IMG/VR virus record: IMGVR_UViG_3300035170_000083
Coordinates: 1,736 to 65,735 of that record
Origin: a virus
Taxonomy: Duplodnaviria > Caudoviricetes
Reading direction: 5' to 3' (one strand)
DNA length: 64,000 nucleotides
Shown here: positions 2,726-51,584 of the stretch, piece by piece
Layout: each line of letters opens with the position of its first letter
Position numbering within the stretch: position 1 is the first letter of the stretch
Translations under genes and position numbers: made by a program
Notes under the pieces: generated by a model
The model's database searches: none
What the model was told of the DNA's origin: nothing
The model's input: only the letters and a program-made list of their open reading frames with translations

Positions 2726-3516
2726 TGCGCGTCAACGAATCCCTCGAAGCCGCCTTCCAGCAGCTCAAGGAAATGTTCTCGGGGGCTACCTCGCGCGCCG
2801 TCGCCGGCATCAGGGACCTGGGCGAAGTCCTGGTCGCCACCGTCGGCGATGACACCAGCGACACGCACGCCGTCCACGACCAGAAGCACGACATCTGGAC
2901 GCGGTTCACCGACGTGCTCACCGGCCTCAGCGACTTTGGTCGCCTGTACATCCCCGCCGGCATTCTCTTCCGGCTCACGCCCAAGGGCATGGGCGCACAT
3001 GTCATCCGCGGCCGCAAGATGCGCGGTCCGGGCGCTTCGCTCGTCATCCCCGATGGCGGCGACGGCGACGCGGCGGTGGTTCCGGGCTTCGACGACTCCG
3101 ACCTCGACGAGAACAACACTGGCATCCTGCTGCCCGAGGGATTCCACGTCGAGTCCCAGAATGATCGGGTGCGCATCGTCGCCAATTCGTCAGGAGCGAA
3201 CGGTGGCTCGAAGTCGGTGTTCGAGATGGCGCAGGATGGGTCGGCCACGATGCAGGCGAGCGGGGCGACGATTGCGATTGGGTCCGACGGAGCGGTCTCT
3301 GTGACATCGGCACCGGGGAAGGCGGTCAATGTCACGCCCGGTGCTGGCGGCGCGGTCATCCTCGACAACGGCACGCAGCCGGTGTCGCGCGTGAATGACC
3401 AGACCCAGGGTCACATGCACAGCTTTTCCCTCGTTGCGGGGCCCTACGGAGTCTCGGGAGCCATCATCAGCGCCCAGGACAAGATGCAGGACGGCAACCC
3501 CAACGTGCTGGCATAG
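2725..3516 (+). CDS. Baseplate spike protein (gpV/gp45-like)
   Basis: Beta-helix-like repeats with a C-terminal 'VSRVNDQTQGHMHSF' HxH tip motif; synteny. Confidence 0.7.
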   Translation: MRVNESLEAAFQQLKEMFSGATSRAVAGIRDLGEVLVATVGDDTSDTHAVHDQKHDIWTRFTDVLTGLSDFGRLYIPAGILFRLTPKGMGAHVIRGRKMRGPGASLVIPDGGDGDAAVVPGFDDSDLDENNTGILLPEGFHVESQNDRVRIVANSSGANGGSKSVFEMAQDGSATMQASGATIAIGSDGAVSVTSAPGKAVNVTPGAGGAVILDNGTQPVSRVNDQTQGHMHSFSLVAGPYGVSGAIISAQDKMQDGNPNVLA

Positions 3517-14484: not shown

Positions 14485-14616
14485 ATGCACCACATCAGGA
14501 GCGCCATCGGCGAGCTGTTGTTCTGGCTCGGCTTCGGCCTGTTCTGGTTCGCCGCCGGCCTCATCGGCGTCTGCCTGGTGTGGCTGGTCGAGGACCGAAA
14601 GCGAGGTCGGCCATGA
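14485..14616 (+). CDS. 43-aa membrane peptide (holin candidate)
   Basis: MHHIRSAIGELLFWLGFGLFWFAAGLIGVCLVWLVEDRKRGRP; RBS GAGG; stop overlaps the endolysin start. Not in the ORF track. Confidence 0.55.
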   Translation: MHHIRSAIGELLFWLGFGLFWFAAGLIGVCLVWLVEDRKRGRP

Positions 14617-15260
14617 GCCTGCAGATCGTCGGCTCCCTCACGACGCGCGAGCTTCCCGAGCGCCAGCACAGCATCGACGCGCTGCTGTTCCACACGACCG
14701 GGGACACGGACCTCGCCAGAATCATGAGCTTCTACCACGCGCCCGACGGGCTCCAGCCGCACTTCATGATCGACTACGACGGGACCGTGCGCCGCATCGT
14801 CTGGGAGCACCAGGTCGCCTACCACTGCAAGATCGACCCCGCCGAGGCCCGGCTCTACCAGCGCGGTTACGCCGAGTGGTCGTGCTGGAAGTGGCTCAAC
14901 GAGCGCCCCGTGCACAACGGCGACGAGTTCTCGGGCTACCGCTTCTGGCGCGACGAGTGGCGCGCCGCGGGGATGGAAAGCCCGCTCGAGCTCGTCACCG
15001 GCGCCCATCCCAACAGCTCGAGCATCGGCATCGAGTTGCGCCAGCCCGAGAAGCCGGGCCCCGACATCTTTACACCGGAGCAGTACCAAGCGGCGGCGGA
15101 GCTCGCCGCGGACCTGCACGGTCGGCTGGGAGTCCAGCTCGACCGGAAGCACGTGCTGGGGCACCAGGACTGCTCGCCGATGCGCAGATGCTCCGCCGCC
15201 GGCGGATGGGACCCGGGCTACGCGTTCAAGTGGAATCGTCTCTGGGATTTGCTGCACTGA
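14613..15260 (+). CDS. Endolysin, N-acetylmuramoyl-L-alanine amidase (Amidase_2)
   Basis: 'LLFHTTG', 'PHFMIDYDG', 'VAYHC', 'NSSSIGIEL', 'VLGHQD...WDPG'. Confidence 0.9.
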   Translation: MSLQIVGSLTTRELPERQHSIDALLFHTTGDTDLARIMSFYHAPDGLQPHFMIDYDGTVRRIVWEHQVAYHCKIDPAEARLYQRGYAEWSCWKWLNERPVHNGDEFSGYRFWRDEWRAAGMESPLELVTGAHPNSSSIGIELRQPEKPGPDIFTPEQYQAAAELAADLHGRLGVQLDRKHVLGHQDCSPMRRCSAAGGWDPGYAFKWNRLWDLLH

Positions 15261-15324
15261 CACCGCGGCGCGCCGCTCGAGCGCGCCCGTCTCTCGCCTA
15301 GCGCCGTCCGGCGCGACCTACTCC

Positions 15325-15564
15325 CTATCCCTCCTCAGCCGTCGAATCCTCTTGCGCCGCCTGCCAGGCGCTGACCGCATCGCCGTCGCTCCGCCGCATG
15401 CATCCGCCGCGGTGGCGGCAGCGGCCGTCGTGCGCCAGGTGCTCGCAAAGCGGCGCGCGGCAGTCGCGGCACGTCACCAGCGGCAGGACATCCGTCTGTC
15501 CGTCGTCGTCGCAGAAGTCGCAAAGCACCGCGTTCGGGTGCGCCTCCAACGTGGCATGCGGCAT
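15325..15564 (-). CDS. Small Zn-finger protein
   Basis: CDFC...CRDC..LCEH...C; preceded by the hairpin element and its SD. Confidence 0.6.
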   Translation of the reverse strand: MPHATLEAHPNAVLCDFCDDDGQTDVLPLVTCRDCRAPLCEHLAHDGRCRHRGGCMRRSDGDAVSAWQAAQEDSTAEEG

Positions 15565-15572
15565 GGTCATCG

Positions 15573-15620
15573 CCTCCATCGACGGGCGCAGCCGTCGCCA
15601 GCTGCGCCCGCCTGTGCAGG
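15573..15620 (-). repeat. TGCACAG-hairpin-CGATGGAGG element, copy A
   Basis: Minus strand reads CCTGCACAG GCGGGCGCAGC tggcgacg GCTGCGCCCGT CGATGGAGG, directly after the TGA of the 15621-16400 gene. Confidence 0.9.
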
Positions 15621-16400
15621 TCAGACGGCCCAGGCCTTGCCCGATTCGGCCGTCTTGGTGATGCCGCTCACTTCCGCGCGGCACTTCACGCACCAGATCG
15701 TGGCGCCGTTCACGTAGCACTTGTCCGTCGGCTTGCGGCAACGGGTGCATTTGAGCGCGGACCGCTTCGCCGGAGCGGATGCGGCCTGGGCGGCGCGTGT
15801 CGCGCGCGACAACTCGGCGGCCCATTCCTTCGCCTCGCGAGCGGCATAGGCCTCGCGGATGGCCAGGAACGCGGACACGACGCCGGTAACCACCTCCATG
15901 TTCATGGCTGCCAGGAACGCAGGTGCGTCAACTTGGCGCGCCATCTTGGCGATGCGAGGCGACGGCCGAACGATGACCGGAGCAGGCTGCGCGGCGCGCT
16001 CAGCGCGGTCGGTCTCTGCCATGGCCGCCATCGGCAACACGGCGGCGGCATCGGTACGGGTCGGAGGCTCCGCCGCCCACTCGCGCGCAGCCTCTTCCGC
16101 ATCCGCCAGCGGAGCGGCCTCCGCGGTCGCCTCAGCCGGCGCTCCCTTCCAGGCGCCGCGCCAAGCCACGCGCACGTCCTTTGGGTCCATGAGGTCGACA
16201 ACTTCGGCGGCATCGTCCGGAGCGGGCACAACCGCAGCCGAGTGGCCCATGTGACCGTAGCGGTCCGCCTCGCGGCGCGCGGCCATGGCGGTCATGCGAA
16301 TGGAGTCCGTGTAGCGCTCCTTGCCGCCCTGGCTCGTGTAGTAGACGCGGCAAACGAAGTTCCTCTTGCTCGTCGGCTTGGCCGTTGTCGTGGTTTCCAT
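15621..16400 (-). CDS. Hypothetical protein with a C-terminal Zn ribbon
   Basis: METTTTAK... start; CTRC...CVKC; first gene of the leftward sigma54 transcript. Confidence 0.65.
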   Translation of the reverse strand: METTTTAKPTSKRNFVCRVYYTSQGGKERYTDSIRMTAMAARREADRYGHMGHSAAVVPAPDDAAEVVDLMDPKDVRVAWRGAWKGAPAEATAEAAPLADAEEAAREWAAEPPTRTDAAAVLPMAAMAETDRAERAAQPAPVIVRPSPRIAKMARQVDAPAFLAAMNMEVVTGVVSAFLAIREAYAAREAKEWAAELSRATRAAQAASAPAKRSALKCTRCRKPTDKCYVNGATIWCVKCRAEVSGITKTAESGKAWAV

Positions 16401-16413
16401 GCTTGACGGACAT

Positions 16414-16430
16414 TGCAAGCATGTGGCCAA
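16414..16430 (-). promoter_or_regulatory. Sigma54-type promoter, leftward
   Basis: Minus strand TTGGCCACATGCTTGCA gives GG-N10-GC with TTGC at -12. Confidence 0.75.
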
Positions 16431-16481
16431 GTAACACCGTGCTGCGCCGCGTGGACTTCATGAGTCGCCTACATCGGCGGC

Positions 16482-16610
16482 TGTGGCAAAGTGACACTTA
16501 GGCCACGCAAAACCGCCACACAGCCAAGGCGTTACATAGCCACACGAATTCGACCGACGCAATCGGTCATTTTGCAAGTGGCTGATTCGCCGTGTGGCAA
16601 AGTGCCACTT
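16482..16610. promoter_or_regulatory. Enhancer-like repeats TGTGGCAAAGTG(A/C)CACTT (16482-16499 and 16593-16610) plus GCCAC half-sites
   Basis: Near-palindromic direct repeat lying between the two divergent sigma54 promoters. Confidence 0.6.
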
Positions 16611-16660
16611 TTGACCGCGAGCGCTTCCGTCGAAGTCCGCGCAAATCGCAGAAGTGTTAC

Positions 16661-16677
16661 TTGGCAACATCTTTGCT
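16661..16677 (+). promoter_or_regulatory. Sigma54-type promoter, rightward
   Basis: TTGGCAACATCTTTGCT gives GG-N10-GC with TTGC at -12. Confidence 0.8.
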
Positions 16678-16702
16678 AGGACCCTAATGCATGGAGGCAG
16701 CC

Positions 16703-16900
16703 ATGAAACGGACTTCGGCGGTTCTTCCGGCGGGCGGCGACGCGTTCGATGCGCATTGCATGGAGGACGGCCACACGGTGGCGTATCTCGGCTGCGAGAC
16801 GCGTGAGCAGGCCGAGCGCGTGGCGTGCGCCTACGTGGAGCGCGGCATCGCAGCGGCGCAGGAAGAGAAGTGGTCGCGCGCTGGCAAGCGCGCCGGCTGA
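16703..16900 (+). CDS. Hypothetical protein
   Basis: SD GGAGG; an alternative in-frame ATG lies at 16691. Confidence 0.6.
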   Translation: MKRTSAVLPAGGDAFDAHCMEDGHTVAYLGCETREQAERVACAYVERGIAAAQEEKWSRAGKRAG

Positions 16901-16902
16901 CA

Positions 16903-16944
16903 CCTGCACAGCGCGCCCGAGGCGACTCGGGCGCGCGATGGAGG
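16903..16944 (+). repeat. TGCACAG-hairpin-CGATGGAGG element, copy B
   Basis: CCTGCACA GCGCGCCCGAG gcga CTCGGGCGCGC GATGGAGG, with a GNRA loop. Confidence 0.9.
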
Positions 16945-16952
16945 CAAAGCCG

Positions 16953-17252
16953 ATGGAAATCGAAATGGATCGCGCGAACGTGCTCACCTACGAGCGAGAT
17001 TTCGCCGCATGCGTCGCGGCCATGGCTGCGGGCGAGCGCGTCGAGATCGATCACGAAATGTATTTCTACTGGCTCGAAGTGTCGCCGCCCGTCTACATGC
17101 GGCGCGTCATCGCGCTGCCGGGAGACGGGAAACGTGTCACCGCGTTCGGATTCGCAGAGGGCAGCGAGCGCATCACCGCGTTCTGGTGCCAAGGTAACGG
17201 AGACTCCGCCCGCTACTTCTGCCAGCGCACCGAAGAGGTGAACCGTGGCTGA
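16953..17252 (+). CDS. DUF1419-like protein
   Basis: 'EIDHEMYFYWLEVSPPVYM...FGFAEG' pattern. Confidence 0.55.
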   Translation: MEIEMDRANVLTYERDFAACVAAMAAGERVEIDHEMYFYWLEVSPPVYMRRVIALPGDGKRVTAFGFAEGSERITAFWCQGNGDSARYFCQRTEEVNRG

Positions 17253-18162
17253 TTTCTCCTCTGATATTCCGGTGGAGCTGGCACGTGCGGCTCACTCGGG
17301 AACGTCGTTTACGCCGGACGTGCGCGCAGAGCAGGAGCGCAGCGGTTATGCGGCGACGCTGGCAAAGGACTTCGCAAACCTGTCGCGCTACGCGACGACG
17401 GATGAGAAACGCGCCCAGCTCGCGGAGGAATTCGAGCGCTATCGGACCGGCTATCGTCGGCGCTACCTGGTCTATCTCGGCGCGCGCTCGCGGTGCATGT
17501 CGTCCATGATTGCCGGACCTTCGAATTTCCCGACGGCGCGGAATCAGAAGCGCAACGCTAGCGCCGACCGCCGCTCCGACGATTTGCAGTCGTTTCGCGA
17601 GCGTGCGCTCAAGGCCATCACGAAGGCGCTGACGCCGGAGCTGCAGCCGATCGCCTCCGGCGCGTCTGACGCGGTCGAGCGGCTGCGCGCCGAGATTGCC
17701 AAAGCGACGTCGGTGCAGGAGCGCATGCGGGCGGCGAACGCGGCGATTCGCAAGCACGCGAAGGGCGGCGCGGATGCGCAGGTCGCCGCGCTGGTGGCTT
17801 TCGGCTTCAGCGAGGCGATGGCGCGCGAGGTCATCACGCCGGACTGCATGGGCCGCATCGGATTCGCCGACTACCAACTCAAGAACAACGGCGCGAACGT
17901 CCGCCGCATGCAACAGCGCCTTGCCGAAGTCGAGCGGGCGAAGTCGACGGCAGACACCGTGACGGAAGGAGGCGACGGTATCCGCGTCGAGGATTCGCCG
18001 GCAGACAACCGGGTGCGCCTCTTCTTTCCCGGCAAGCCCGCCGACGACGTGCGGGCGGATTTGAAGGCGCACGGCTTTCGCTGGGCGCCCAGCCTCGGAT
18101 GTTGGCAGGCCTACCGCAACCATCGCGCCCTGACCCGGGCGCAGCGGTTCGCCGCGACGTAG
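17245..18162 (+). CDS. DUF3560-like/polyvalent-protein-associated protein
   Basis: 'SSMIAGPSNFP', 'YQLKNNGANVRR', 'NRVRLFFPGKP...LKAHGFRWAPS.GCWQ'; a family typical of mobile-element early or leading regions. Confidence 0.7.
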   Translation: MADFSSDIPVELARAAHSGTSFTPDVRAEQERSGYAATLAKDFANLSRYATTDEKRAQLAEEFERYRTGYRRRYLVYLGARSRCMSSMIAGPSNFPTARNQKRNASADRRSDDLQSFRERALKAITKALTPELQPIASGASDAVERLRAEIAKATSVQERMRAANAAIRKHAKGGADAQVAALVAFGFSEAMAREVITPDCMGRIGFADYQLKNNGANVRRMQQRLAEVERAKSTADTVTEGGDGIRVEDSPADNRVRLFFPGKPADDVRADLKAHGFRWAPSLGCWQAYRNHRALTRAQRFAAT

Positions 18163-18168
18163 GCCGCG

Positions 18169-18204
18169 CCTGCACAGCGCGGCGCGTGCGCCGCGCGATG
18201 GAGG
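18169..18204 (+). repeat. TGCACAG-hairpin-CGATGGAGG element, copy C
   Basis: CCTGCACA GCGCGGCG cgtg CGCCGCGC GATGGAGG. Confidence 0.9.
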
Positions 18205-18227
18205 TGTCGCCATGGTCCGCAAGTAGC

Positions 18228-18269
18228 CTTGCACAGCGCGTCGGAGACCGCTCCGGCGCGCGATGGAGG
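18228..18269 (+). repeat. TGCACAG-hairpin-CGATGGAGG element, copy D
   Basis: CTTGCACA GCGCGTCGGAG accg CTCCGGCGCGC GATGGAGG. Confidence 0.9.
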
Positions 18270-18275
18270 GCGAAT

Positions 18276-18692
18276 ATGAAAGCGTTGTGTGTGCGGCAGC
18301 CGTTCGCGGAGCTCATCGCGCGCGGCATCAAGAGGCTCGATATCCACTCGTGGGACACGAGCTATCGCGGTCCGCTGGCGATCGTCGCGCCCGACAGCTG
18401 GCATCGCTACGCGGACGAAGTGATGGAGGAGTATGGCCTGGTCGAGGCCGATTGCCCGCGCTCCATCACGGTGTGCATCGTCGAATTGCACGATACGGAG
18501 CGACGGCCGCAGCGGATCAGCCGCGCCGCCGCGCGTCGGATCGATGAGGCCGCGTGCGTGAACGTCGCACCCGGAGAATTCATGTTCATGATGCAGGGCC
18601 CGCGTCGCGTCGCGCCGGTCAAGGTCCGGCGACTGTTGCGGATCTACAGCATTCCAGACGAGAGCATTCGCGTTCTCCCGGTGCGGCCGTGA
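18276..18692 (+). CDS. ASCH domain protein
   Basis: 'MKALCVRQPFAELIARGIKRLDIHSWDTSYRGPLAI'; the GxKxxExR motif is degenerate. Confidence 0.85.
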   Translation: MKALCVRQPFAELIARGIKRLDIHSWDTSYRGPLAIVAPDSWHRYADEVMEEYGLVEADCPRSITVCIVELHDTERRPQRISRAAARRIDEAACVNVAPGEFMFMMQGPRRVAPVKVRRLLRIYSIPDESIRVLPVRP

Positions 18693-18892
18693 CACGCGAG
18701 GTCAACGCGCCGACCGAGCTAATCGCCGAGTGCAACACGAAGCGTTGGACCGTGGCCGACCTGGACGTCCGGCGCATGTTCGACGCAGCCGAGGTGGCCG
18801 AGGTGGTGCAGGAGGCGACGGCGGCGCTTGCCGAGGCGCAAACGGAAATGCTGCGCGACGTGGCGCGGCGGCTGGCCATCAGCTTTTGCTAG
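18689..18892 (+). CDS. Hypothetical protein
   Basis: GTGA overlap with the ASCH stop. Confidence 0.45.
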   Translation: MTREVNAPTELIAECNTKRWTVADLDVRRMFDAAEVAEVVQEATAALAEAQTEMLRDVARRLAISFC

Positions 18893-18905
18893 GCGAGGTG
18901 ACTCG

Positions 18906-19070
18906 ATGGGACCGACGACAAGCTACAGCAATTGGTGCGTAGCGCTGGGCACCGCGGCTGCGAAATTCAACCGGGTGATCCGATTCGGCCCTGACACGTT
19001 CGACGCCTGGCGGCGAGGCCAGTCGCCCGAGGGTTACGCACAGACGCAACCGAAGCCGCGCGGCTTCTGA
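18906..19070 (+). CDS. Hypothetical protein
   Basis: SD GAGG; MGPTTSYSNW... start. Confidence 0.5.
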   Translation: MGPTTSYSNWCVALGTAAAKFNRVIRFGPDTFDAWRRGQSPEGYAQTQPKPRGF

Positions 19071-19110
19071 CCTGCACAGCGCATCCGGTGCGACGGGTGC
19101 GCGATGGAGG
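19071..19110 (+). repeat. TGCACAG-hairpin-CGATGGAGG element, copy E
   Basis: CCTGCACA GCGCATCCG gtgcga CGGGTGCGC GATGGAGG, directly after a TGA. Confidence 0.9.
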
Positions 19111-19118
19111 ACCAGACC

Positions 19119-19307
19119 ATGGAAGATCGTCCGTTGACCGATGCCGAGCTGATCGCTGTCGCTGCGCTGGCGCAGTGCGACGTCGTGAGCATGAAATCCG
19201 AAAACGACTACCGCGTCTCGTGCGGCGCGGCGCCCGCCTGGGCGACGCTGGCGTCTGACGCGACCGCGCGGCTCGAGCGCGAGCTGCGCCGGCGGGGTGC
19301 GCTCTGA
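19119..19307 (+). CDS. Hypothetical protein
   Basis: Start lies 8 nt after the element's GGAGG. Confidence 0.6.
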   Translation: MEDRPLTDAELIAVAALAQCDVVSMKSENDYRVSCGAAPAWATLASDATARLERELRRRGAL

Positions 19308-19348
19308 AGCTCGACGGCGCCGACTGCGAGTGTGTTAAAGTACCACTA

Positions 19349-19738
19349 ATGGCGGGTGCGCGACTTCAGAAGATCGGCGAAAAGGCGCTGTGGGAAGCAC
19401 TCAAGAAGCACAACGGCCGCGTCCAGCCCGCCGCGCTCGAGCTGGGCGTGCGCCAGTCGAGCCTGCAGAAGGCGCTGGAGACCTGGGCGAAGCACGTAGG
19501 GGACGAGGCCAAGAAGCTGCGTGAGGCCGACGGCTACACGTTCGGGAGGCCGGGGGAAGTAGACCGCCAGGTCTCGGCGGAACAGTTTTTGAAGCTCTGG
19601 GAGGAGCACGACCGCAAGGTCTTCACGGTGGCGAAGGTGCTCGGGGTCGATCGGTACGCGGTGCGCCGCCTGGCGCGCCTGTACAGCGCCCCAGGGGCGC
19701 CGCCGCCGCGCGCACGAAGGAGGAAGGACGATGGTTGA
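19349..19738 (+). CDS. Tandem Fis-type (HTH_8) DNA-binding protein
   Basis: 'ALKKHNGRVQPAALELGVRQSSLQKAL' and 'LWEEHDRKVFTVAKVLGVDRYAVRRLA'. Confidence 0.75.
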   Translation: MAGARLQKIGEKALWEALKKHNGRVQPAALELGVRQSSLQKALETWAKHVGDEAKKLREADGYTFGRPGEVDRQVSAEQFLKLWEEHDRKVFTVAKVLGVDRYAVRRLARLYSAPGAPPPRARRRKDDG

Positions 19739-19982
19739 AGAGATGGTAGGGGAGCCCGCGATGGTCAGCATGGACAGGTTCGGGGAGCGGGCAGCGGAGG
19801 CCGTGCAGGTCGGCGACCAGCTGCTCAACTTCTCGACGGTGGCGCGGTACATGGACCCAGCGCTGCTGCTCGAGGCGATGGAGTGGGCCGGGCACGGCGC
19901 GACGGCGCAGGCCATCGTCGACGAGTACGTGCGGCTGCATCGGCGGCGATACGGAGACGAGTTCGTCCAGCCGACGGTCTGA
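19731..19982 (+). CDS. Hypothetical protein
   Basis: SD GGAGG; overlaps the previous stop. Confidence 0.55.
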   Translation: MVEEMVGEPAMVSMDRFGERAAEAVQVGDQLLNFSTVARYMDPALLLEAMEWAGHGATAQAIVDEYVRLHRRRYGDEFVQPTV

Positions 19983-20000
19983 CCAGCTGGCGCGGCGACT

Positions 20001-20609
20001 CTAAGGGGCCGGGTCGGCGGGAAGCTTTTCCGCCACGCGGCCCGTCCTCGCCGGCCACCGCGCGTAGAACTCCGCCTTGTCGCGGTCCATCAGCTTGGCA
20101 GCATCGACGCTCGACGTCATGAGGTTGCCGGAGGGCAGGTGGTCGAGCCCGAGCGCGTGACCGATCTCGTGGGCGGCGACGGCCGCGCAACCATCCTGGC
20201 CCTGGCAAGCCATGTCAGCGACGTGAATTTCGCCGTCGACCTCGTTCCACCACTGCTGGTTGTCCGAGTACTCGCCCTTGGTCCCGAGGACCACGCCGAT
20301 AGAACTCGCGGCGACCTGGCCGGGAACCTCGCGCGCGCAGCGCACCTGAGCGCCAACCGCGTCCCAGAGGTGCGCGCCGCGGCAGTACGCGTCCACCATG
20401 TCGCCGGGAGGCGTCTCGCTTGCCTCGAGCCACGCCTGCTGCTGGTCGTTCCAGTAGTTCGTGACGGCCTTGGGGTAGGTCAGGTCGTGGAGCTTGTCGC
20501 TGATCACGATGACCGCGAGCGAGCCGTCTCCTCGCAGTCCCGAGGAGCAGCCCGCCAGCGCGGCCGCCACAGCGACCCAACACCATCCCGTCGCCCGCAT
20601 TGACTCCAT
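20001..20609 (-). CDS. Lipoprotein metzincin (matrixin-like) metalloprotease
   Basis: Lipobox LAGC; HEIGHALGLDH followed by a Met-turn (GNLM). Confidence 0.85.
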   Translation of the reverse strand: MESMRATGWCWVAVAAALAGCSSGLRGDGSLAVIVISDKLHDLTYPKAVTNYWNDQQQAWLEASETPPGDMVDAYCRGAHLWDAVGAQVRCAREVPGQVAASSIGVVLGTKGEYSDNQQWWNEVDGEIHVADMACQGQDGCAAVAAHEIGHALGLDHLPSGNLMTSSVDAAKLMDRDKAEFYARWPARTGRVAEKLPADPAP

Positions 20610-20719
20610 GTAACCCTATACAAAGGGTACGACCGATTTATTTCCGGAAGCACCCGCGTGATCGCGTGCGGTGAATTGTCGCATGGGTAAGATGGCGACC
20701 GGCCAAGAAATTTTGGGAT

Positions 20720-21466
20720 GTGCGGTCCCCAATTGACAACCAGTCGACCGCCGATCAGAAGCTCGTCAGCGTGCGAACCCTGGTAGTGTTTCTCGCGCTC
20801 TTTGTTGCAGCGCCCGCGTTCTCCGACGAGGCTGATATCAGCGAGGAGGCGCGCCGCCATTTCGACGTCGGATCAAAGGCCTACGACCTACTGCGCTGGA
20901 CCGAGGCCCTGGAGCACTTCCAAGCGGCCTACGAGCTCCGGCAGGACCCGGCGCTGCTCTTCAATATCGGGCAGTGCCAACGGCAACTTGGCCAACGCGC
21001 GGCCGCCGTCCACAGCTATCGCGCCTATCTCGAGCACGTACCCAACGCGCCGAATCGGCAGACGGTCTTGGACAAGATAGCCGAACTCGAGGCTGGTGCA
21101 CCTCCGCCGCCGGCGCCGCTGGCCTCGGCGAAGCCGCAACCCGCCGAGTCGCGCGTCGCCACGGTGGCGCCGCCGCCGGTGCGCCCGCGCCGATGGCGCC
21201 CAGGCGCGGCCGGCCCCGTTCTCATAGCGCTGGGCACGGCAGCCGCTGCTACGGGGATAGGCCTCGCCGCATACGGCAACCAGGTCGACGGCCGCGTGGC
21301 CGGTGCCCCTTCGCTGGCGCAGGCCGAGCGGTACGAGAGCGACCGCGACAAATTCGAAAATGCGGGATGGGCTATGATCGCCGTCGGAGGTGCTGCCGCA
21401 GTGGCGGGCATCGTCGTCCTGACGGTCGATTCGGTTCGGGCTCGTCGCCGGGAGCGCGCCCGATGA
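20720..21466 (+). CDS. TPR membrane protein (myxobacterial type)
   Basis: Signal peptide; TPR 'ARRHFDVG..AY...EALEHFQAAYELRQDPALLFNIGQC'; two C-terminal hydrophobic helices. Confidence 0.85.
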   Translation: MRSPIDNQSTADQKLVSVRTLVVFLALFVAAPAFSDEADISEEARRHFDVGSKAYDLLRWTEALEHFQAAYELRQDPALLFNIGQCQRQLGQRAAAVHSYRAYLEHVPNAPNRQTVLDKIAELEAGAPPPPAPLASAKPQPAESRVATVAPPPVRPRRWRPGAAGPVLIALGTAAAATGIGLAAYGNQVDGRVAGAPSLAQAERYESDRDKFENAGWAMIAVGGAAAVAGIVVLTVDSVRARRRERAR

Positions 21467-22659
21467 GCCGACGCCGCTGGTCACTCGCGCTGTTGCTCCT
21501 GGCCGCGAGCTGCCCCAAGAGCACGCCGCACGTTCGGTGCACGAACGACGACCAGTGCTCACTCCCCGGGCGCCCGGCCGTCTGCATCGACCATGTCTGC
21601 GCGGTGGCGTCGTCGAGCTGTCCGTCGGGGTATCGCATCGACTACCGCTCCGAAGGAAGCGCCGACTGTGTCCCGGCGGCACCGGACATGGCCGTGGGCT
21701 CCGGCGATGACCTGGCTACGTCCACGCCGAGCGACATGGCGGTCCCGCCCGGCACGCCGCTGACGTGGAGCCCCGTGTCGAATCCCGCGGCTGACCACGG
21801 GACAACGCTGCGCAGCATCTCCGGCCTCGGGCCCAACGAGGCGTGGGCTGTGGGGGATTCGTCGACGGTGCTCTACTGGCTGGCGGGGCAATGGTTGGCT
21901 CGAACCGCGATCCAGGGCCCGTTTCCTCCGGCCCTCGACTCGTTCACAACGGTCGTGGCCGGCCCGACGTCGGCGGAATGCTTCATCTTCGACGGCCACC
22001 CTCGGTTCCAGCACGTGCAGAGCCTGATGGGTGCCTCGTGGACGACGCTGCAACCCCGCTCTCAGCAGACGACAATCGACGGCGCAACCATCAACAGCTC
22101 CGAGGTCTGGGCCGTGGGAACCAGCGACGGCATCATTCACACGGTCGCCGGGATGTCGCCGACCCTGGTGACGGGGGTCGACGCCGTGACGCCGCCGGCC
22201 TTCAAGGCCGTCTGGTCGGTCGGCAACGACACGTGGGTCGTCGGGCTCGGCGGCGTGATTGTGCACGTCACAGCCGCGGCACCTGGCGGTCCATGGGCGG
22301 GGACGCAGATCGCCACCACGTCCACCGCGGACCTCTTCGCGGTCTGGGCCGGCGCGGGCGACGTCTGGGCGGCCGGCGCCGGCGGCGCGGTCGTGCACCT
22401 GGTGGCGGGCGGTGGCGGCTGGGCCAGCGCACCCAGCTCGAGCGGCGCCGCGGTTGACCTCCACGGCATCTGGGGCAGCGCAGGGGACGACGTCTGGGCG
22501 GTCGGGGATGGCGGCGCGCTGCTGCACTGGACCGGAGCCGCCGCGGGCTGGCAATCGGCCGCCAGCGGCACGAGCGCGCGCCTCAACGCGGTCTGGGGCA
22601 GCGGCCCGCGGGACGTCTGGGCGGTGGGCGACGGCGGCATCATCCTCCACGGTCAATAG
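21463..22659 (+). CDS. Lipoprotein with a Cys-rich N-terminus and beta-propeller repeats
   Basis: Lipobox AASC; repeated 'L.GIWGS...DVWAVGDGG.LLHW' blades. Confidence 0.85.
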   Translation: MSRRRWSLALLLLAASCPKSTPHVRCTNDDQCSLPGRPAVCIDHVCAVASSSCPSGYRIDYRSEGSADCVPAAPDMAVGSGDDLATSTPSDMAVPPGTPLTWSPVSNPAADHGTTLRSISGLGPNEAWAVGDSSTVLYWLAGQWLARTAIQGPFPPALDSFTTVVAGPTSAECFIFDGHPRFQHVQSLMGASWTTLQPRSQQTTIDGATINSSEVWAVGTSDGIIHTVAGMSPTLVTGVDAVTPPAFKAVWSVGNDTWVVGLGGVIVHVTAAAPGGPWAGTQIATTSTADLFAVWAGAGDVWAAGAGGAVVHLVAGGGGWASAPSSSGAAVDLHGIWGSAGDDVWAVGDGGALLHWTGAAAGWQSAASGTSARLNAVWGSGPRDVWAVGDGGIILHGQ

Positions 22660-22846
22660 CCGCCACCAGGCGGTCACTCTCCCTCCGCTCATCGCGCAGC
22701 AGGCGCCGCAGCACGTCGCTCTCCATCTTCTCCCGGTCGAGCGTCGCCAGCAGGCGCACCAGCGGGTCGTGCGGCGGCAGCTTCGCGCAGCGCTGGCGCA
22801 GCTCGAGCAGCTCCTCGGGCAGCAGCGGGGCGGTCTCCTGGGCCAT
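22640..22846 (-). CDS. Hypothetical protein
   Basis: MAQETAPLLPEELLELRQRC...; divergent from the LexA-box gene. Confidence 0.5.
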   Translation of the reverse strand: MAQETAPLLPEELLELRQRCAKLPPHDPLVRLLATLDREKMESDVLRRLLRDERRESDRLVAAIDRGG

Positions 22847-22907
22847 GCGGTAGCGTACGAGAGCAGCCGGCCGACCTTCCCGACGGCGCTCGTAGATCCC
22901 GCTTGAC

Positions 22908-22923
22908 CTGAAACTTTGTTCAG
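22908..22923. promoter_or_regulatory. Myxococcus-type LexA (SOS) box overlapping a TTGACC -35
   Basis: CTGAAACTTTGTTCAG against the M. xanthus consensus CTRHAMRYBYGTTCAGS; TTGACC at 22903-22908. Confidence 0.7.
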
Positions 22924-22937
22924 TCCAGGGTCCGGAC

Positions 22938-23318
22938 ATGAAGACCGGGGTGCCGACCTGCGAGCGGTGCGGCGGCGTCAAGGACGTCTGCAAGGCGTGC
23001 GGTGGCCGCCAGGGCGGCGTTCTGTACGGCACCGCCGCCCTGCGGGGCGCGTTGTGGGCGGAGCACGTCGTGAAGCAGCTGGTGGAACGCTGGCCGCTCC
23101 GCTGGCCCCGCTCGCCGAAGGCGGTCTACAAGGCCGGGGAGCGCATCAAGGACATCGCCGGCAGCGACCCAGAGCTCTACGGCTACCTGCTCGACGTGTG
23201 CATGAAGGCGGCGGCCAAGCGCTACGGCGAGATGCTCGACTACCTGCGCGGCGCGCGACAGCGGCTGCCGCCGAGGCCGCAGCCGATCGAGGCGAAGGAC
23301 GAGGATACGCCGCTGTGA
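22938..23318 (+). CDS. Putative SOS-inducible Zn-finger protein (antirepressor candidate)
   Basis: CERC...CKAC; starts 14 nt downstream of the LexA box. Confidence 0.55.
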   Translation: MKTGVPTCERCGGVKDVCKACGGRQGGVLYGTAALRGALWAEHVVKQLVERWPLRWPRSPKAVYKAGERIKDIAGSDPELYGYLLDVCMKAAAKRYGEMLDYLRGARQRLPPRPQPIEAKDEDTPL

Positions 23319-23368
23319 AGAGAGGGCCCGGCTGACGCTACGGACGAGGTCTAGGGTACCCTGGAAAA

Positions 23369-23923
23369 ATGAAAACGATCGACGACGACGACATCGCTTT
23401 CTTCGAAAAACAGTTCAAGGCCGCAGAGGGCAGACGCTCGATCGCGGTCGACGCGGCCGACATGACCGCGCTTGCCGTGGGGGACTACATCCTGACGTTC
23501 GCCGCGATGGAAGCGGCAATCGACTATGCAATTGCACTACTGCTTCACGCTCAGGACAAGAACCTGGGTTCGATGGTAGTGGCGCATGCGGGGTTTTCCG
23601 CGAAGCTGGACCTGCTTGGAGCGCTCCACAAGTATCGGTGCTCCACCAAGGGAGAGCGGGATGCAGTGGACGAGTTGATAAACGGCTGCCGTCAGGTGGC
23701 TGAGACGCGCAATCGCATTGTGCACGCAGACTGGGCCCAAGGTCACAGGGACGACAAGCCGTTCCTGCGGGTCGTCCGCGCCAGAGCAAAGGACGGCCTG
23801 CGAGTCGAACTTGTCGACATGCCAGCCGCGAAGCTGGTGGAAGCGACGACGGCCGCCGGCCGGATGATGAATGAGGTCTACGACGTCTTTGGAACGCCTG
23901 CCGGCGAGATCGACCAGTACTAG
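23369..23923 (+). CDS. HEPN-like helical protein (moron beside attP)
   Basis: All-helical with an Rx4H motif 'RNRIVH'; appears lower in GC than its flanks. Confidence 0.55.
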   Translation: MKTIDDDDIAFFEKQFKAAEGRRSIAVDAADMTALAVGDYILTFAAMEAAIDYAIALLLHAQDKNLGSMVVAHAGFSAKLDLLGALHKYRCSTKGERDAVDELINGCRQVAETRNRIVHADWAQGHRDDKPFLRVVRARAKDGLRVELVDMPAAKLVEATTAAGRMMNEVYDVFGTPAGEIDQY

Positions 23924-23930
23924 CTCTGTT

Positions 23931-24104
23931 TCGAGTAACGCCGAAAACCGAAGCATGACCAGCGGATGCGGCGTCAGTTACTCGATTCGCGCTAAAACAC
24001 CGTCGACGGAAGGTTAATACGCGTAAGGTTCTCAGTTCGATTCTGAGAGGAGCCACCAGTACTTACGCGACATTCCCCGCCGAAGTTACTCGATAGTTAC
24101 TCGA
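23931..24104. other. attP: attP: tRNA 3'-half core (about 24019-24058) flanked by arm-type repeats GTTACTCGA
   Basis: GCGTA AGGTT CTCAG TTCGATT CTGAG AGGAGCC A CCA forms anticodon 3' strand, T-arm, acceptor strand and CCA. Arm repeats are at 23931-23939 (inverted), 23977-23985, 24085-24093 and 24096-24104. Confidence 0.9.
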
Positions 24105-24155
24105 ATCAAGGTCGCCTTGGACGGTGTCTCCAGCACCATCCGGGGCGGCCTCGTT

Positions 24156-24335
24156 TCATTCCTGGCGCGCCTGCAGGACGTCGTCCCACGTCACCGTGAC
24201 CGGCCAGGCGCCGGCGTCGAAGATCTCGCGCAACCGCTCGATGGTCATCGCCTTGATCTCGGTGCGCGTCGGTCCTGCGCTGGGCGGTCGGCGGTCCGCC
24301 AATCTCGCTTTGATATCCTCGTCGTGGTCGCTCAT
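24156..24335 (-). CDS. Hypothetical 59-aa protein between integrase and attP
   Basis: ATGA overlap with the integrase stop; SD GGAGG. Confidence 0.5.
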   Translation of the reverse strand: MSDHDEDIKARLADRRPPSAGPTRTEIKAMTIERLREIFDAGAWPVTVTWDDVLQARQE

Positions 24336-25477
24336 CTCTTCCCTCCTGCGATCAGCTTGAATGCCTGCTCGGCCTGCGCGCCCTCGACCAGGCGCCGGTC
24401 GACGTAGTGCCGGAACGTCGTCGCTTCGTCCTCGTGTGACAGGTGGTTCATGATGTCGTTCGCCGCCGCCCCTCGCTTGGCAAGCACGGTGCCCGACGCG
24501 CTCTTGAGACCGTGAGGAGGGAAGCGGGGCACGCCGGCGCCATCGCAGAAGCGAGCCATCCCCTCCCAAAGCCACTTGTGCGTGTGATAGCCGTCCTCGG
24601 TGTACGGCGTCTTGAACAACGGCTCCTCCGGGTCTCGCCCCTCGATCAGCTCTCGAAAGAACGGCTGCAGCTTGTCGGGGATGACGCGCGGCTCGTTCGA
24701 CTTCTCGGTCTTCCCGTCGTGGACGTTCAGCTGGGTGCATCCCATGTCGACGTCTCGAACCTGGCGAATCACCAAGTCTTTCGACCGCAGCGACATGGAG
24801 AACGCAGACAGGAGGCCCAGCGCCGTCCAGTCCCGCAGTAGAAGCCGAGACCAGACGTAGTCGTACCATCGCTGCAGCTCGTTGCCGGTGGGCTTGCGCT
24901 TGCCGCTCTTGCGCTTGCCCAGCCCCTCGACGTCGTCGAATGGGTTGACGGTCACCCACCCCTGCTTCTTGCAGAACTTGTACAGGGACCGCGCGTTGAT
25001 GAGCGCCGCCCGGTGGTAGGCCACCGAGATCGGCTCTCCATCGGCGCGCTTCCGCTCGCGGAAGGCGTCGTAGAGCTCGCCGGCGCGCTCGACCCTGATG
25101 CTGCCGATCGCGGCCCCGAGGTCGGGGAAGAAGAGGCGGAGGCGACGGACCGTCTCCGTGTAGCTCTGCTCGACGGTGCCCTTGTCCTTGAGGTGCTGTT
25201 GGTAGGCGACGATGCCCGCCTCGAGCGAGAGCGTACGGGTGCGCTCTATTCCGTCCCTGAGTTTCTGCGCGTCCTGTTCGGCTTCGACTCGGACACGCTC
25301 GCACTCGGCCTCGTCGAGGTCGGCCGCGTCGCCGACTCGGTAATGCGTAGCCTCCTTTCGATCTTTCGGATCCTTCGCTCTCGGCTCGATGTGGATGATG
25401 CGCCAGTAGACCGTGCCTCGGATGGTGACCTTGGTCGGTCCGACGACGCGCGGTTCTTCGTCTGCTCGTCGAGACAT
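24332..25477 (-). CDS. int: Tyrosine integrase
   Basis: SAM-like core 'VNPFDDVE', catalytic R (SLRSKD), K (DGKT), HGLK, LSH and RHY; adjacent to attP. Confidence 0.92.
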   Translation of the reverse strand: MSRRADEEPRVVGPTKVTIRGTVYWRIIHIEPRAKDPKDRKEATHYRVGDAADLDEAECERVRVEAEQDAQKLRDGIERTRTLSLEAGIVAYQQHLKDKGTVEQSYTETVRRLRLFFPDLGAAIGSIRVERAGELYDAFRERKRADGEPISVAYHRAALINARSLYKFCKKQGWVTVNPFDDVEGLGKRKSGKRKPTGNELQRWYDYVWSRLLLRDWTALGLLSAFSMSLRSKDLVIRQVRDVDMGCTQLNVHDGKTEKSNEPRVIPDKLQPFFRELIEGRDPEEPLFKTPYTEDGYHTHKWLWEGMARFCDGAGVPRFPPHGLKSASGTVLAKRGAAANDIMNHLSHEDEATTFRHYVDRRLVEGAQAEQAFKLIAGGKR

Positions 25478-32957: not shown

Positions 32958-33051
32958 CGTTCGTTCTCCTAAAGCGCGCAGCGACGCGGCCGCAGGCCAG
33001 GGGGAGAGAGGAGGGGGCTCTCCGCCCGCGGCCGCGTCGAGCGCACAGCTG

Positions 33052-51063: not shown

Positions 51064-51584
51064 GCAGCGACAAGTCGAAGGGCGGCCGCCCCCGCAAGCT
51101 GGACGAGGTCATCACCGTCCGCACGATGGAGGACGGCAAGGCGGTCGAGCGCAAGATGACCGTGGGCGATCGCATCCTCATGGTGGTGCGCGCCGGCAAC
51201 TTCCCGACCCCGGCCGCGGTCGCGTGCGGCGTCTCGGAGCGCGCGTTCATGGCCTGGATGAGAGCCGGGCGCGAGGGCAAGGACGAGCAGTTCGCGCAGT
51301 TTTATCAGGCCGTAAAAGAGGCCGAGAGCGAGGCCGAGGCGGTCGCGGTCGGGACCATCATGGCCAACCCCATGTGGCAGGCCAAAGCATGGTTCCTCGA
51401 GCGGAAGTTCCCCGACCGCTGGGGTCAGACCCTGAAGGTCGAGCAGAAGGTCGAGCAGGAGCTCGAGGACGCGATGGAGCGCCTGCGGGCGAGGTTGCCG
51501 CATGAGGTCTTCCAGCAAGTCGTCTCCATCCTCGCTGATGACGAGGGTGGCGAAGCGGAAGCTGGCGAGCCTTCGATCCAATAA
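51060..51584 (+). CDS. terS: Terminase small subunit-like HTH protein
   Basis: 'GRPRKL...GN..TPAAVACGVSERAFMAWM...WQAKAWFLERKFPDRWG'; precedes TerL. Confidence 0.8.
   Translation: MSSDKSKGGRPRKLDEVITVRTMEDGKAVERKMTVGDRILMVVRAGNFPTPAAVACGVSERAFMAWMRAGREGKDEQFAQFYQAVKEAESEAEAVAVGTIMANPMWQAKAWFLERKFPDRWGQTLKVEQKVEQELEDAMERLRARLPHEVFQQVVSILADDEGGEAEAGEPSIQ

What the first reader, a model, noticed from the sequence alone, without database searches (positions are those of the whole stretch)
15573..19110. Five copies of a structured junction element, C(C/T)TGCACAG-[variable hairpin]-CGATGGAGG
Seen: copies lie at 15573-15620 (-), 16903-16944, 18169-18204, 18228-18269 and 19071-19110. Each begins 0-6 nt after a stop codon and ends in the SD of the next gene. 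The flanks are fixed while the 8-12 bp stems differ in sequence but stay paired. Non-canonical pairs are G-U on the sense strand and one loop is GNRA, pointing to an RNA-level structure. CCUGCA can also pair with UGGAGG (one mismatch) across a CA/GA internal loop, which would hide the SD. I saw the element only in the two operons driven by the sigma54 promoters. Inference: it is a cis-regulatory RNA, acting as a protein-bound translational switch, processing site or antitermination site. Alternatively it is a cassette-junction site that lets accessory genes be shuffled, as attC sites do.
Basis: partly seen in the sequence, partly recalled or inferred. Interest (0 to 1): 0.82.

Follow-up and report, generated by a model that had tools for sequence, protein, structure and literature searches.

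The report
Stop-adjacent hairpin junctions in phage operons
Five gene junctions in a temperate phage carry the same small hairpin, which starts right after one gene's stop codon and hides the next gene's ribosome-binding site; the same element turns up in unrelated uncultured phages and appears to be an undescribed family.

Summary
TGCACAG-N15-45-CGATGGAGG occurs exactly five times in the window, at the stated places (0 of 100 shuffles). A possible sixth copy at 19678 is not one.

The element is a family, not a local oddity. The same 9-nt arms, enclosing different but fully paired stems, occur in other viral and metagenome contigs (22 further copies). These share almost no DNA or protein with the window. 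A covariance model built without window sequences finds all five copies (E 6e-18 to 1e-9). There is no Rfam match, and no paper holds both arm strings in a relevant context.

All 27 copies lie in sense orientation, 0-13 nt after a stop codon (at most 2 nt in 20). In 18 of 27, GGAGG lies 4-10 nt before a start codon.

Best reading (about 0.4): an mRNA clamp that pairs the downstream Shine-Dalgarno with the 9 nt after the upstream stop, so a terminating ribosome opens it (translational coupling).

Rivals: an RNase III-type processing site, a DNA junction or recombination site, or a protein operator.

The sigma54 link holds only in this window. attC membership fails: no core sites and no co-occurring integrase.

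The parts
15573..15620 (-). Copy 1, between gene J (stop 0 nt upstream) and gene K. CCTGCACAG, 13-pair stem with GCGA loop, CGATGGAGG.
   Evidence: 40.3 bits, E 1.2e-9; z -6.0
16903..16944 (+). Copy 2, between gene A (stop 2 nt upstream) and gene B (ATG 8 nt after GGAGG). 10-pair stem, GCGA loop.
   Evidence: 67.6 bits, E 5.9e-18; z -6.9
18169..18204 (+). Copy 3, 6 nt after the stop of gene C. Followed by a 4-codon mini-ORF.
   Evidence: 46.3 bits; z -3.5
18213..18227 (+). Mini-ORF ATG GTC CGC AAG TAG (MVRK*). It starts 7 nt after copy 3's GGAGG and ends 1 nt before copy 4. It is either a relay ORF or the remnant of a lost gene.
   Evidence: (sequence read directly)
18228..18269 (+). Copy 4 (CTTGCACAG variant; the U pairs G as a wobble). 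ATG of gene D (ASCH domain) lies 6 nt after GGAGG.
   Evidence: 57.6 bits; z -4.9
19071..19110 (+). Copy 5, 0 nt after the stop of gene F. ATG of gene G lies 8 nt after GGAGG. The stem is nearly identical to a copy in unrelated metagenome contig L352, differing by an A-U to G-C double change.
   Evidence: 54.5 bits; z -3.9
16662..16677 (+). Sigma54-type promoter-like site TGGCAACATCTTTGCT heading the rightward operon (genes A to I, 16703-19982).
   Evidence: one of only two matches in the window; function not tested
16414..16429 (-). Sigma54-type promoter-like site TGGCCACATGCTTGCA heading the leftward operon (genes J 15621-16400 and K 15325-15570).
   Evidence: function not tested
15325..16400 (-). 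Leftward two-gene operon. J is 259 aa with C-terminal CxxC..CxxC. K is 81 aa and Cys-rich. Neither has a Pfam, PHROG or NCBIfam match.
16703..19982 (+). Rightward operon of small genes A to I. C matches phrog_6744/phrog_19458, D is ASCH, and H has weak sub-cutoff HTH matches (HTH_8 Fis-type, 21.1 bits against a 22-bit cutoff; HTH_29). The rest are ORFans.
19678..19723 (+). Rejected candidate 'sixth copy' (CCTGTACAG..CGAAGGAGG) inside the 3' end of gene H. It is not significant and does not fold.

Best explanation
The five copies belong to an apparently undescribed family of 36-48-nt intercistronic hairpins. So far the family is seen only in uncultured phage and metagenome contigs. I think it most likely works in the mRNA as a stop-codon-adjacent clamp on the next gene's ribosome-binding site.

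Proposed mechanism:
1. The 9 nt that follow the upstream stop codon (CCUGCACAG) pair with CGAUGGAGG. The stable variable hairpin between the arms holds this weak, mismatch-containing helix together. GGAGG is therefore mostly paired.
2. A ribosome terminating on the upstream gene must draw about 9-12 nt past the stop into its mRNA channel. That is essentially the 5' arm, and not necessarily the inner hairpin.
3. This frees GGAGG, so the downstream cistron is initiated only when the upstream one is translated (translational coupling or ribosome hand-over).
4. The inner hairpin would also protect the upstream message's 3' side.

Shown: the copies, the fold, the covariation, the stop and start geometry, the predicted SD masking, and the spread among unrelated phages.

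Inferred: that the folded molecule is RNA, that the ribosome is what opens it, and that coupling is the purpose.
For: (1) Geometry. In 25 of 27 copies a long ORF ends 0-13 nt before the element, and at most 2 nt before it in 20. The other two are the mini-ORF stop and a contig edge. Among exact-arm matches without a hairpin, 10 of 142 show this. An ORF of 30 or more codons starts 4-10 nt after GGAGG in 18 of 27 copies, against 32 of 142 controls.

(2) SD masking. The mean unpaired probability of GGAGG is 0.20 in context. It rises to 0.40-0.66 in 4 of 5 window copies when the 9-nt 5' arm is removed.

(3) Structure under selection.
- 98.9% of cells are paired. 11 of 16 pairs show double changes. 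0 of 500 shuffles reach this, and slid controls give 37-51%.
- In the outer helix, A6-U4' is U-A once and C-G is U-G three times.
- Four contigs with homologous flanking DNA (L077, L254, L294, L365; 70-81% identical DNA flanking the element) differ in the stem by compensating changes.

(4) Sense strand. 27 of 27 copies are in sense orientation. G.U versus A.C is 12 to 3. GNRA loops occur in copies 1 and 2, L020 and L254.

(5) Extended pairing. Pairing extends beyond the fixed arms, between the stop-codon region and the SD-start spacer. The energy is -9.6 versus -6.7 +/- 0.5 kcal/mol with swapped partners (0 of 200). 23 of 26 copies fall below the mean of their own shuffles (Wilcoxon p 7.5e-6). 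This is not expected for a DNA site defined by its conserved core.

(6) No shared phage factor. Six element-bearing viral records share no protein family common to all (blastp at 1e-4). This fits a universal partner such as the ribosome.

(7) The mini-ORF between copies 3 and 4 would keep a coupling relay intact.

(8) From recall, not from any call here: a terminating ribosome covers roughly 9-12 nt 3' of the stop codon (ribosome helicase and footprint literature).
Against: (a) SD masking alone does not need fixed sequence, yet the arms are nearly invariant. Of 10 secondary copies found in multi-copy loci, 6 are exact, 3 have one mismatch and 1 has three. In IMG/VR, 0 of 55 matches to arm variants at the A6/U4' pair carry a hairpin, against 7 of 32 for the exact arms. 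The CA/GA loop and the G.G mismatch never vary. This points to sequence-specific recognition or to recent spread.

(b) 9 of 27 copies have no ORF start within 12 nt. L015 sits at an operon end before a convergent terminator-like hairpin. L077 and L294 are followed by a second hairpin and then an SD of their own. L254 and L365 have their own SD about 20 nt further on. The constant feature is therefore the upstream stop, not the downstream start.

(c) For copy 5 the predicted SD masking is not relieved by removing the 5' arm.

(d) Outside copies were gathered with exact arms and a hairpin filter. Arm conservation and covariation are partly circular (my own selection).

(e) In compact phage operons any intergenic element must abut a stop and a start.

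(f) No expression or end-mapping data exist.
Confidence: 0.4

Rival explanations
1. RNase III-type processing signal. The full hairpin is an irregular helix of about two turns: lower variable stem, conserved mismatched middle and upper variable stem. The host's double-strand-specific RNase III would cut it between cistrons, as at the five signals in the phage T7 early transcript. Cutting would release the downstream SD and leave the upstream mRNA with a protective 3' hairpin.
For: The position is intercistronic in polycistronic operons. The helix extends beyond the arms to roughly 20-28 positions. The conserved internal 2x2 loop and G.G mismatch are the kind of irregularities that restrict RNase III to single-strand cleavage and yield stabilising 3' hairpins (passages read in PMC3867540). 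This reading explains all 27 copies, including those with no adjacent start. No phage protein is needed, since no family is shared.
Against: Bacterial RNase III recognises helix shape with degenerate sequence boxes, so 18 fixed nucleotides are not explained. Inner stems vary from 7 to 13 pairs, so the distance from loop to conserved middle is not constant. The record encodes no RNase III. That is neutral, because T7 also uses the host enzyme. There are no cleavage data.
Confidence: 0.2
2. DNA-level junction. The element would be a recombination linker, or a small selfish palindromic element, that spreads between and within phage genomes and marks where accessory genes are gained, lost or swapped. 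That is attC-like in effect but not in family. Any RNA effects would be secondary.
For: Between unrelated contigs the element is the only shared DNA, as 40-48-nt islands at 80-96% identity. Very few proteins are shared. L281 has three identical copies at three junctions, with identity extending a few nt outside the arms. Copies within one genome resemble each other (L301, L381). The link is with gene 3' ends in 27 of 27 copies rather than with starts. Related contigs differ in gene content beside the element (L077 versus L254; L280 versus L281). Two elements flank a 4-codon remnant. If replication starts between the divergent operons, the sense strand is the lagging-strand template on both sides, so orientation does not exclude single-stranded DNA (inference).
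Against: There is no recombinase partner. 0 of 5 other element-bearing viral records, including the complete G004, have PF00589, and no protein family is common to all. The window's integrase is an ordinary phage type, below every integron or Xer model cutoff. attC core sites are absent. The same gene family carries the element upstream in L301 and downstream in L281, so there is no fixed gene-site unit. Pairing outside the conserved core, the G.U excess and the built-in SD geometry fit RNA better. No empty-site versus filled-site pair was found.
Confidence: 0.15
3. Operator for a sequence-specific RNA-binding protein, either a host translational regulator or an unrecognised phage factor. It would bind the conserved mismatched middle of the hairpin and repress or time translation of the downstream genes.
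For: The arms are nearly invariant, including the non-canonical G.G, C.A and A.G positions, next to a freely varying stem. GGAGG stays conserved where it is not the SD (L077 group). AUGGA within the 3' arm fits the ANGGA core of CsrA/Rsm sites (recalled, not tested).
Against: No candidate protein is shared among six viral records. No known RNA-binding family was found in the two operons. No rRNA segment that the element could mimic was found in two test genomes beyond chance 1-mismatch 9-mers. The 5' arm has no GGA.
Confidence: 0.12

Closest known systems
Start-associated sequences and extended SAS (SAS/ESAS) of Cluster K mycobacteriophages (PMC3203893; passages read)
   Same: Both are short repeats containing the SD, in one orientation, just upstream of start codons. 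Both are confined to the non-structural part of the genome and partly accompanied by an inverted repeat immediately upstream. The SAS/ESAS function is also unknown and suspected to be translational. One element-bearing phage group here (L077, L254, L294) has its own box of that type, CCGACAGARAGGAG.
   Different: The sequences are unrelated (GGGATAGGAGCCC versus CGATGGAGG). In ESAS the 17-bp inverted repeats are conserved and the spacer varies. Here the outer arms are fixed and the inner inverted repeat varies while staying paired. This element is tied to the upstream stop codon and pairs across the hairpin with the SD. It occurs in phages sharing no detectable proteins, whereas SAS/ESAS belong to one phage cluster.
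RNase III processing signals of the phage T7 early polycistronic mRNA (review PMC3867540, passages read; details of individual sites recalled)
   Same: Both are several hairpins with an internal irregularity placed between cistrons of one transcript. Cleavage can free a downstream ribosome-binding site and leave a stabilising 3' hairpin.
   Different: Cleavage is untested here. These elements are shorter and have 18 fixed nucleotides with hypervariable upper stems. They are shared across unrelated phages.
Integron attC sites (features recalled from the integron literature, not read here)
   Same: Both sit at the 3' end of co-oriented, promoterless small ORFs. Both have conserved paired ends, an unpaired spacer and a variable terminal stem, with the structure rather than the sequence of the middle conserved. 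Strand asymmetry is present in both.
   Different: There are no RYYYAAC/GTTRRRY core sites and no integron integrase. This element is much shorter, has a built-in SD, and shows no fixed gene-site cassette unit.
REP/BIME elements close to stop codons in enterobacteria (recalled: REP within about 15 nt of a stop codon affects translation of the upstream gene; mRNA 3' stabilisation)
   Same: Both are GC-rich, imperfectly conserved palindromes directly after stop codons, acting at the RNA level on translation or stability. Both can also recombine.
   Different: REPs are host-chromosomal, present in hundreds of copies and linked to RAYT transposases. Here no clean copy was found among 4 arm matches in 401 Myxococcota genomes, nor in the 120 stretches listed by the looser (7+9-nt) pattern scan of genome contigs. 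All clean copies lie in viral or metagenome contigs.
PeSL promoter-stem-loop cassettes of T4-type phages and 'boundary sequences' of lambdoid phages (recalled, not read here)
   Same: Both are repeated junction motifs in plastic regions of small accessory genes, proposed to mediate modular shuffling.
   Different: No promoter lies in or next to the element. The arms are only 9 nt. No shuffling event has been shown.

Membership tests
Any Rfam 15 family | Covariance-model match at the gathering score, or at least a suggestive E-value | tested here: not met
   0 matches at gathering score over the whole window. In 15300-20000 at E up to 10 there were five weak matches (E 1.6-5.3, all far below gathering). 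One (RF02038 SPRY4-IT1_1, 15579-15660 +, 18.5 bits against 50, E 2.5) overlaps copy 1 on the opposite strand. None is a credible match to a copy.
Integron attC site | Inverse core R'' RYYYAAC and core R' GTTRRRY at the two ends | tested here: not met
   The ends are CCTGCACAG and CGATGGAGG in all copies. No AAC..GTT pair is present. The consensus itself is recalled.
Integron attC site | Integron-type tyrosine integrase (IntI) in the same element | tested here: not met
   The window's integrase (24332-25477, -) scores 28 bits against a 220-bit cutoff on the Xer/integron-integrase model. 0 of 5 other element-bearing viral records have PF00589.
Integron attC site | Sits at the 3' end of co-oriented ORFs; folded strand has paired conserved ends, an unpaired spacer and a variable terminal stem | tested here: met
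   This is a resemblance in layout only.
RNase III processing signal (T7 type) | Irregular helix of roughly two turns between cistrons of a polycistronic RNA | tested here: met
   In silico only. The criterion comes from PMC3867540.
RNase III processing signal (T7 type) | Site-specific cleavage by RNase III | not testable with these tools
   No RNA run is listed for this DNA.
Cluster K SAS/ESAS | 13-bp SAS 5'-GGGATAGGAGCCC upstream of start codons; 17-bp conserved inverted repeats with a variable spacer | tested here: not met
   The sequence differs, and the conserved and variable parts are the other way round.
REP/BIME | High copy number in the host chromosome | tested here: not met
   There were 4 arm matches in 401 Myxococcota genomes. 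None has a hairpin in the element's register between the two arms; one (G244) has an 8-bp palindrome in a shifted register that includes the CGAT of the 3' arm. None of the 120 genome contigs stretches listed by the looser (7+9-nt) pattern scan has a hairpin. Both are samples, and the host is unknown.
Intrinsic terminator | GC-rich hairpin followed by a U tract | tested here: not met
   Each hairpin is followed by CGAUGGAGG. None of the 5 terminator-like sites in 15200-20100 coincides with a copy.
   True in the window, where the only two sites head the two operons. None occurs in 11 other element-bearing loci, but those are short fragments.

The most novel reading that the evidence does not exclude
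The element is a portable 'plug-in' gene junction that phages exchange as a unit. It would be a self-contained RNA device that hands ribosomes from a stop codon across a hairpin to the next start, a bacterial counterpart of viral termination-reinitiation signals. Its fixed arms would at the same time serve as recombination linkers. Any newly acquired gene could then be slotted into an operon and expressed at once, giving an integrase-free cassette system for phage accessory genes.
Probability: 0.12. Interest if true: 0.85.

Novelty: new variant of a known kind. Interest (0 to 1): 0.62.

Why it matters
Phage accessory and early operons are packed with small genes of unknown function. How these genes are expressed in balance, and how they are swapped between phages, is poorly understood.

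This is a 40-nt motif with 18 fixed nucleotides. It survives in phages that no longer share recognisable proteins, always sits at a stop codon, and usually carries the next gene's ribosome-binding site. It is a concrete, testable handle on both questions.

If it is a coupling or processing device, it is a compact natural part for building synthetic operons. It would also be a new entry for RNA family databases, which would improve phage annotation of gene starts and operon structure. If it is a recombination linker, it would give a sequence-level mechanism for mosaicism in a group of uncultured soil and freshwater phages.

Tried and rejected
- Loose pattern scans. The genome-contig scan was thereby spent, and none of its 120 stretches held a hairpin copy.
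- Relatives through gene C. L242 (61% identity) and L243 (42%) do not carry the element.
- Sixth copy at 19678 and a weak hit at 37491. Both rejected.
- Shared phage-encoded factor. tblastn of all window ORFs against all held loci and blastp among six viral records found no family common to the element bearers.
- rRNA mimicry. Only chance-level 1-mismatch 9-mers were found in the 16S and 23S loci of two genomes.
- Cultured phages (INPHARED). No match to the 4.7-kb region. Only insignificant partial hits to a 66-nt junction (blastn needs 11-nt words, so this is a weak search).
- Unbiased orthologues of the L077 junction. Only two relatives exist in IMG/VR, and both carry the element.
- Compensatory arm variants. 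0 of 55 variant-arm matches have hairpins.
- Readthrough fusion or in-frame use of the ATG inside CGATGGAGG. The frames are inconsistent between copies (read).
- Considered from sequence and recall only, and dropped: promoter, K-turn, hammerhead or other ribozyme, CRISPR-repeat mimic, Chi site. None had a supporting feature. Rfam covers the known ribozymes.
- No RNA holder is listed for this DNA.
- No support was sought from complex prediction, structure prediction or the protein atlas. None bears on a nucleic-acid element.
- Paper searches. No paper holds both arm strings in a relevant context; there were 4 irrelevant hits. Two keyword searches for repeated intergenic stem-loops in phages found nothing matching. 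Searches were used for listings only, except PMC3867540. The REP/stop-codon paper I recalled was not in the listing. Supplements were not opened.

Full report
THE OBSERVATION

None appeared in 100 shuffles. Four copies begin CCTGCACAG and one begins CTTGCACAG. The whole 65.7-kb virus record that holds the window has the same five.

Each copy folds as (((.((..[stem]..)).))). That is CCU/AGG, a G.G mismatch, CA/UG, a 2x2 CA/GA loop, an invariant G-C pair and a variable stem. The z-scores are -3.5 to -6.9.

A candidate sixth copy that I noticed at 19678-19723 is not significant with either covariance model and does not fold.

SETTING

The window is a tailed, temperate phage:
- tape-measure and baseplate genes at 0.1-7 kb;
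- endolysin at 14580-15260;
- tyrosine integrase at 24332-25477;
- SbcC-like ATPase and exonuclease at 31.6-34.2 kb;
- DnaC-like loader, large terminase at 51502-53013, portal and major head protein.

The elements lie between the lysis gene and the integrase, in two divergent operons of small, mostly ORFan genes. These are J and K leftward and A to I rightward.

The only two GG-N10-GC (sigma54-type) matches in the window head these operons. The record has no bEBP AAA+ domain and no RNase III. No sigma70-type promoter or intrinsic terminator coincides with an element.

Junctions in the same operon that lack the element are overlapping or closely spaced stop-start junctions.

IT IS A FAMILY

Of the 164 exact-arm matches held outside the window, 17 have a perfect hairpin filling the whole interval. 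My arithmetic, (6/16)^6 per match, expects about 0.5.

A relaxed rescan of the positive loci gives 22 copies outside the window. Multi-copy contigs are L281 (4 copies), L301 (3 in 1.4 kb) and L381 (2). Five further IMG/VR records have one copy each, including the complete 48-kb G004.

Model R2 was built only from 21 non-window copies. It finds the five window copies at E 5.9e-18 to 1.2e-9, and no other full-length sense-strand match below E 0.01. The next hit (16911-16936 on the minus strand, 26.9 bits, E 1.4e-5) is only the palindromic stem of copy 2 read on the other strand.

Rfam 15 has no match. No paper holds both arm strings in context. Two keyword searches found no description. INPHARED phages have no copy, though that search was weak.

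In 401 sampled Myxococcota genomes there are 4 arm matches. None has a hairpin in the element's register; one (G244) has an 8-bp palindrome in a shifted register. I therefore cannot support a Myxococcota host. The host is unknown.

HOW CONSERVED, AND THE BIAS

On the 27-copy alignment, 98.9% of cells pair and 11 of 16 pairs show double changes. No shuffle reaches this (0 of 500), and slid controls give 37-51%.

This is partly circular, because outside copies were chosen with exact arms and a hairpin filter. Less biased evidence is as follows:
- The five window copies were not filtered.
- Of 10 secondary copies in multi-copy loci, 6 have exact arms, 3 have one mismatch (two of them C to U opposite G) and 1 has three mismatches, including an A6-U4' to U-A swap.
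- Scans for arm variants at that pair gave 55 matches with 0 hairpins, against 7 of 32 for the exact arms.
- Four contigs with homologous flanking DNA (70-81% identical flanking DNA) keep the arms while their stems differ by compensating changes.

Between unrelated contigs the element is the only shared DNA. Very few proteins are shared.

GEOMETRY

All 27 copies are in sense orientation. In 25, a long ORF stops 0-13 nt upstream, and at most 2 nt upstream in 20. The other two are the mini-ORF stop and a contig edge. Controls show this in 10 of 142.

An ORF of 30 or more codons starts 4-10 nt after GGAGG in 18 of 27 copies, against 32 of 142 controls.

Exceptions matter:
- L015 ends an operon before a convergent terminator-like hairpin.
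- L077 and L294 are followed by a second hairpin and their own SD box.
- L254 and L365 have their own SD about 20 nt on.

Pairing tends to continue outside the arms, between the stop-codon region and the SD-start spacer (Wilcoxon p 7.5e-6; mean z only -1.0 per copy).

GGAGG is predicted mostly paired (unpaired probability 0.20). It is freed in 4 of 5 window copies when the 5' arm is removed. G.U exceeds A.C 12 to 3 under a symmetric filter.

MECHANISM

I commit, at about 0.4, to an RNA clamp for translational coupling. The 9 nt after the stop pair with the SD-bearing arm, and the inner hairpin holds this weak helix closed. A terminating ribosome covers about 9-12 nt beyond the stop (recalled). 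It must therefore open the arm but not the inner hairpin, which exposes GGAGG. The 4-codon ORF between copies 3 and 4 would relay this.

Against this reading:
- Masking needs no fixed sequence, yet the arms and their non-canonical positions are nearly invariant.
- A third of the copies have no adjacent start.

Those facts keep three rivals alive:
- An RNase III-type processing signal (0.2). The irregular helix of about two turns and the stabilising 3' hairpin fit the review passages read, but the enzyme does not demand such sequence.
- A DNA-level linker or selfish palindrome (0.15). In favour are the islands of homology, the identical triplicate in L281 and the differing gene content beside the element. 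Against are the lack of a recombinase in 0 of 5 other records, the absence of attC core sites and the lack of a fixed gene-site unit.
- An operator for an unknown sequence-specific RNA-binding protein (0.12). No candidate was found.

These are not mutually exclusive.

COMPARISON AND NOVELTY

In layout the nearest described things are:
- the SAS/ESAS repeats of Cluster K mycobacteriophages, whose function is also unknown;
- T7 RNase III signals;
- attC sites;
- stop-proximal REP elements.

The element meets none of their sequence-defining features (see the membership table). I rate it a new variant of a known kind: structured intercistronic, start-associated phage elements. It seems an undescribed family, with unusually strong sequence conservation across unrelated phages.

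No RNA data were available.

Noticed in passing
window 16400-16700: The two sigma54-like promoters are inverted copies of one another (GTGTTACTTGGC[A/C]ACAT..TTGC). Two further repeats TGTGGCAAAGTG(A/C)CAC lie between them, at about 16481 and 16593. These are possibly activator or repressor sites. Gene H (19349-19738) has weak sub-cutoff HTH matches (HTH_8 Fis-type and HTH_29, both below their Pfam cutoffs). The record has no sigma54-activator AAA+ domain.
   Followed up: partly
window 16398-16429 (-): The ATG of gene J lies only about 14 nt downstream of the -12 element of the leftward promoter-like site, with no SD. Either the mRNA is near-leaderless or the promoter or start call is off.
   Followed up: no
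L077 1541-8170; L254 879-4243; L294 (reverse) 893-2817: This phage group has its own start-associated box CCGACAGARAGGAG a few nt before the start codons of at least 8, 6 and 4 genes. It is often preceded by a different hairpin at each junction. This is a second SAS-like system beside the single copy of the studied element.
   Followed up: partly
L077 2683-2740; L294 (reverse) 2031-2087: A second, conserved long hairpin (..CCCAGGGTTT(T)CCCCCTTCGGGGTTTGAAGGGGGAAACCCTG..) is inserted between the element and the next SD box in two of four related contigs. L254 instead has an extra 71-codon gene there.
   Followed up: partly
L281 1103-2301: Three copies with identical stems lie at three successive junctions. 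Identity extends to (agcgcc)TAG before and TACGGA after the arms. This suggests recent duplication or gene conversion of the junction itself.
   Followed up: partly
L015 (reverse) 3164-3200 versus L352 (reverse) 2069-2105: A second 37-nt stretch is 97% identical between two otherwise dissimilar contigs, a few hundred nt upstream of their element copies. It is unexplained.
   Followed up: no
window 20001-24300: Between the rightward operon and the integrase lie host-like genes. One is a 202-aa lipoprotein with an HExxH-like metalloprotease motif (20001-20609, -), which has no NCBIfam match (Pfam and PHROGs not searched). Another is a TPR-like ORF starting near 20720. They may be moron or cargo genes next to the attachment end.
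   Followed up: no
window 31644-34209 (-): An SbcC-like ATPase (phrog_1499; phrog_77 N-terminal match) lies next to an exonuclease (phrog_69). This is a phage SbcCD/Mre11-Rad50-like pair, enzymes known to attack DNA hairpins. The element's 8-14-bp stems are probably too short to be targets (the last point is recalled).
   Followed up: no
window 18198-18692: The ATG inside copy 3's CGATGGAGG is in frame with gene D, through the mini-ORF region and copy 4, without a stop (ORF 18099..18692). The same in-frame relation holds for copies 1, 2 and 5 and for L029 and L095, but not for copy 4, L280 or L281. I treated it as chance.
   Followed up: partly
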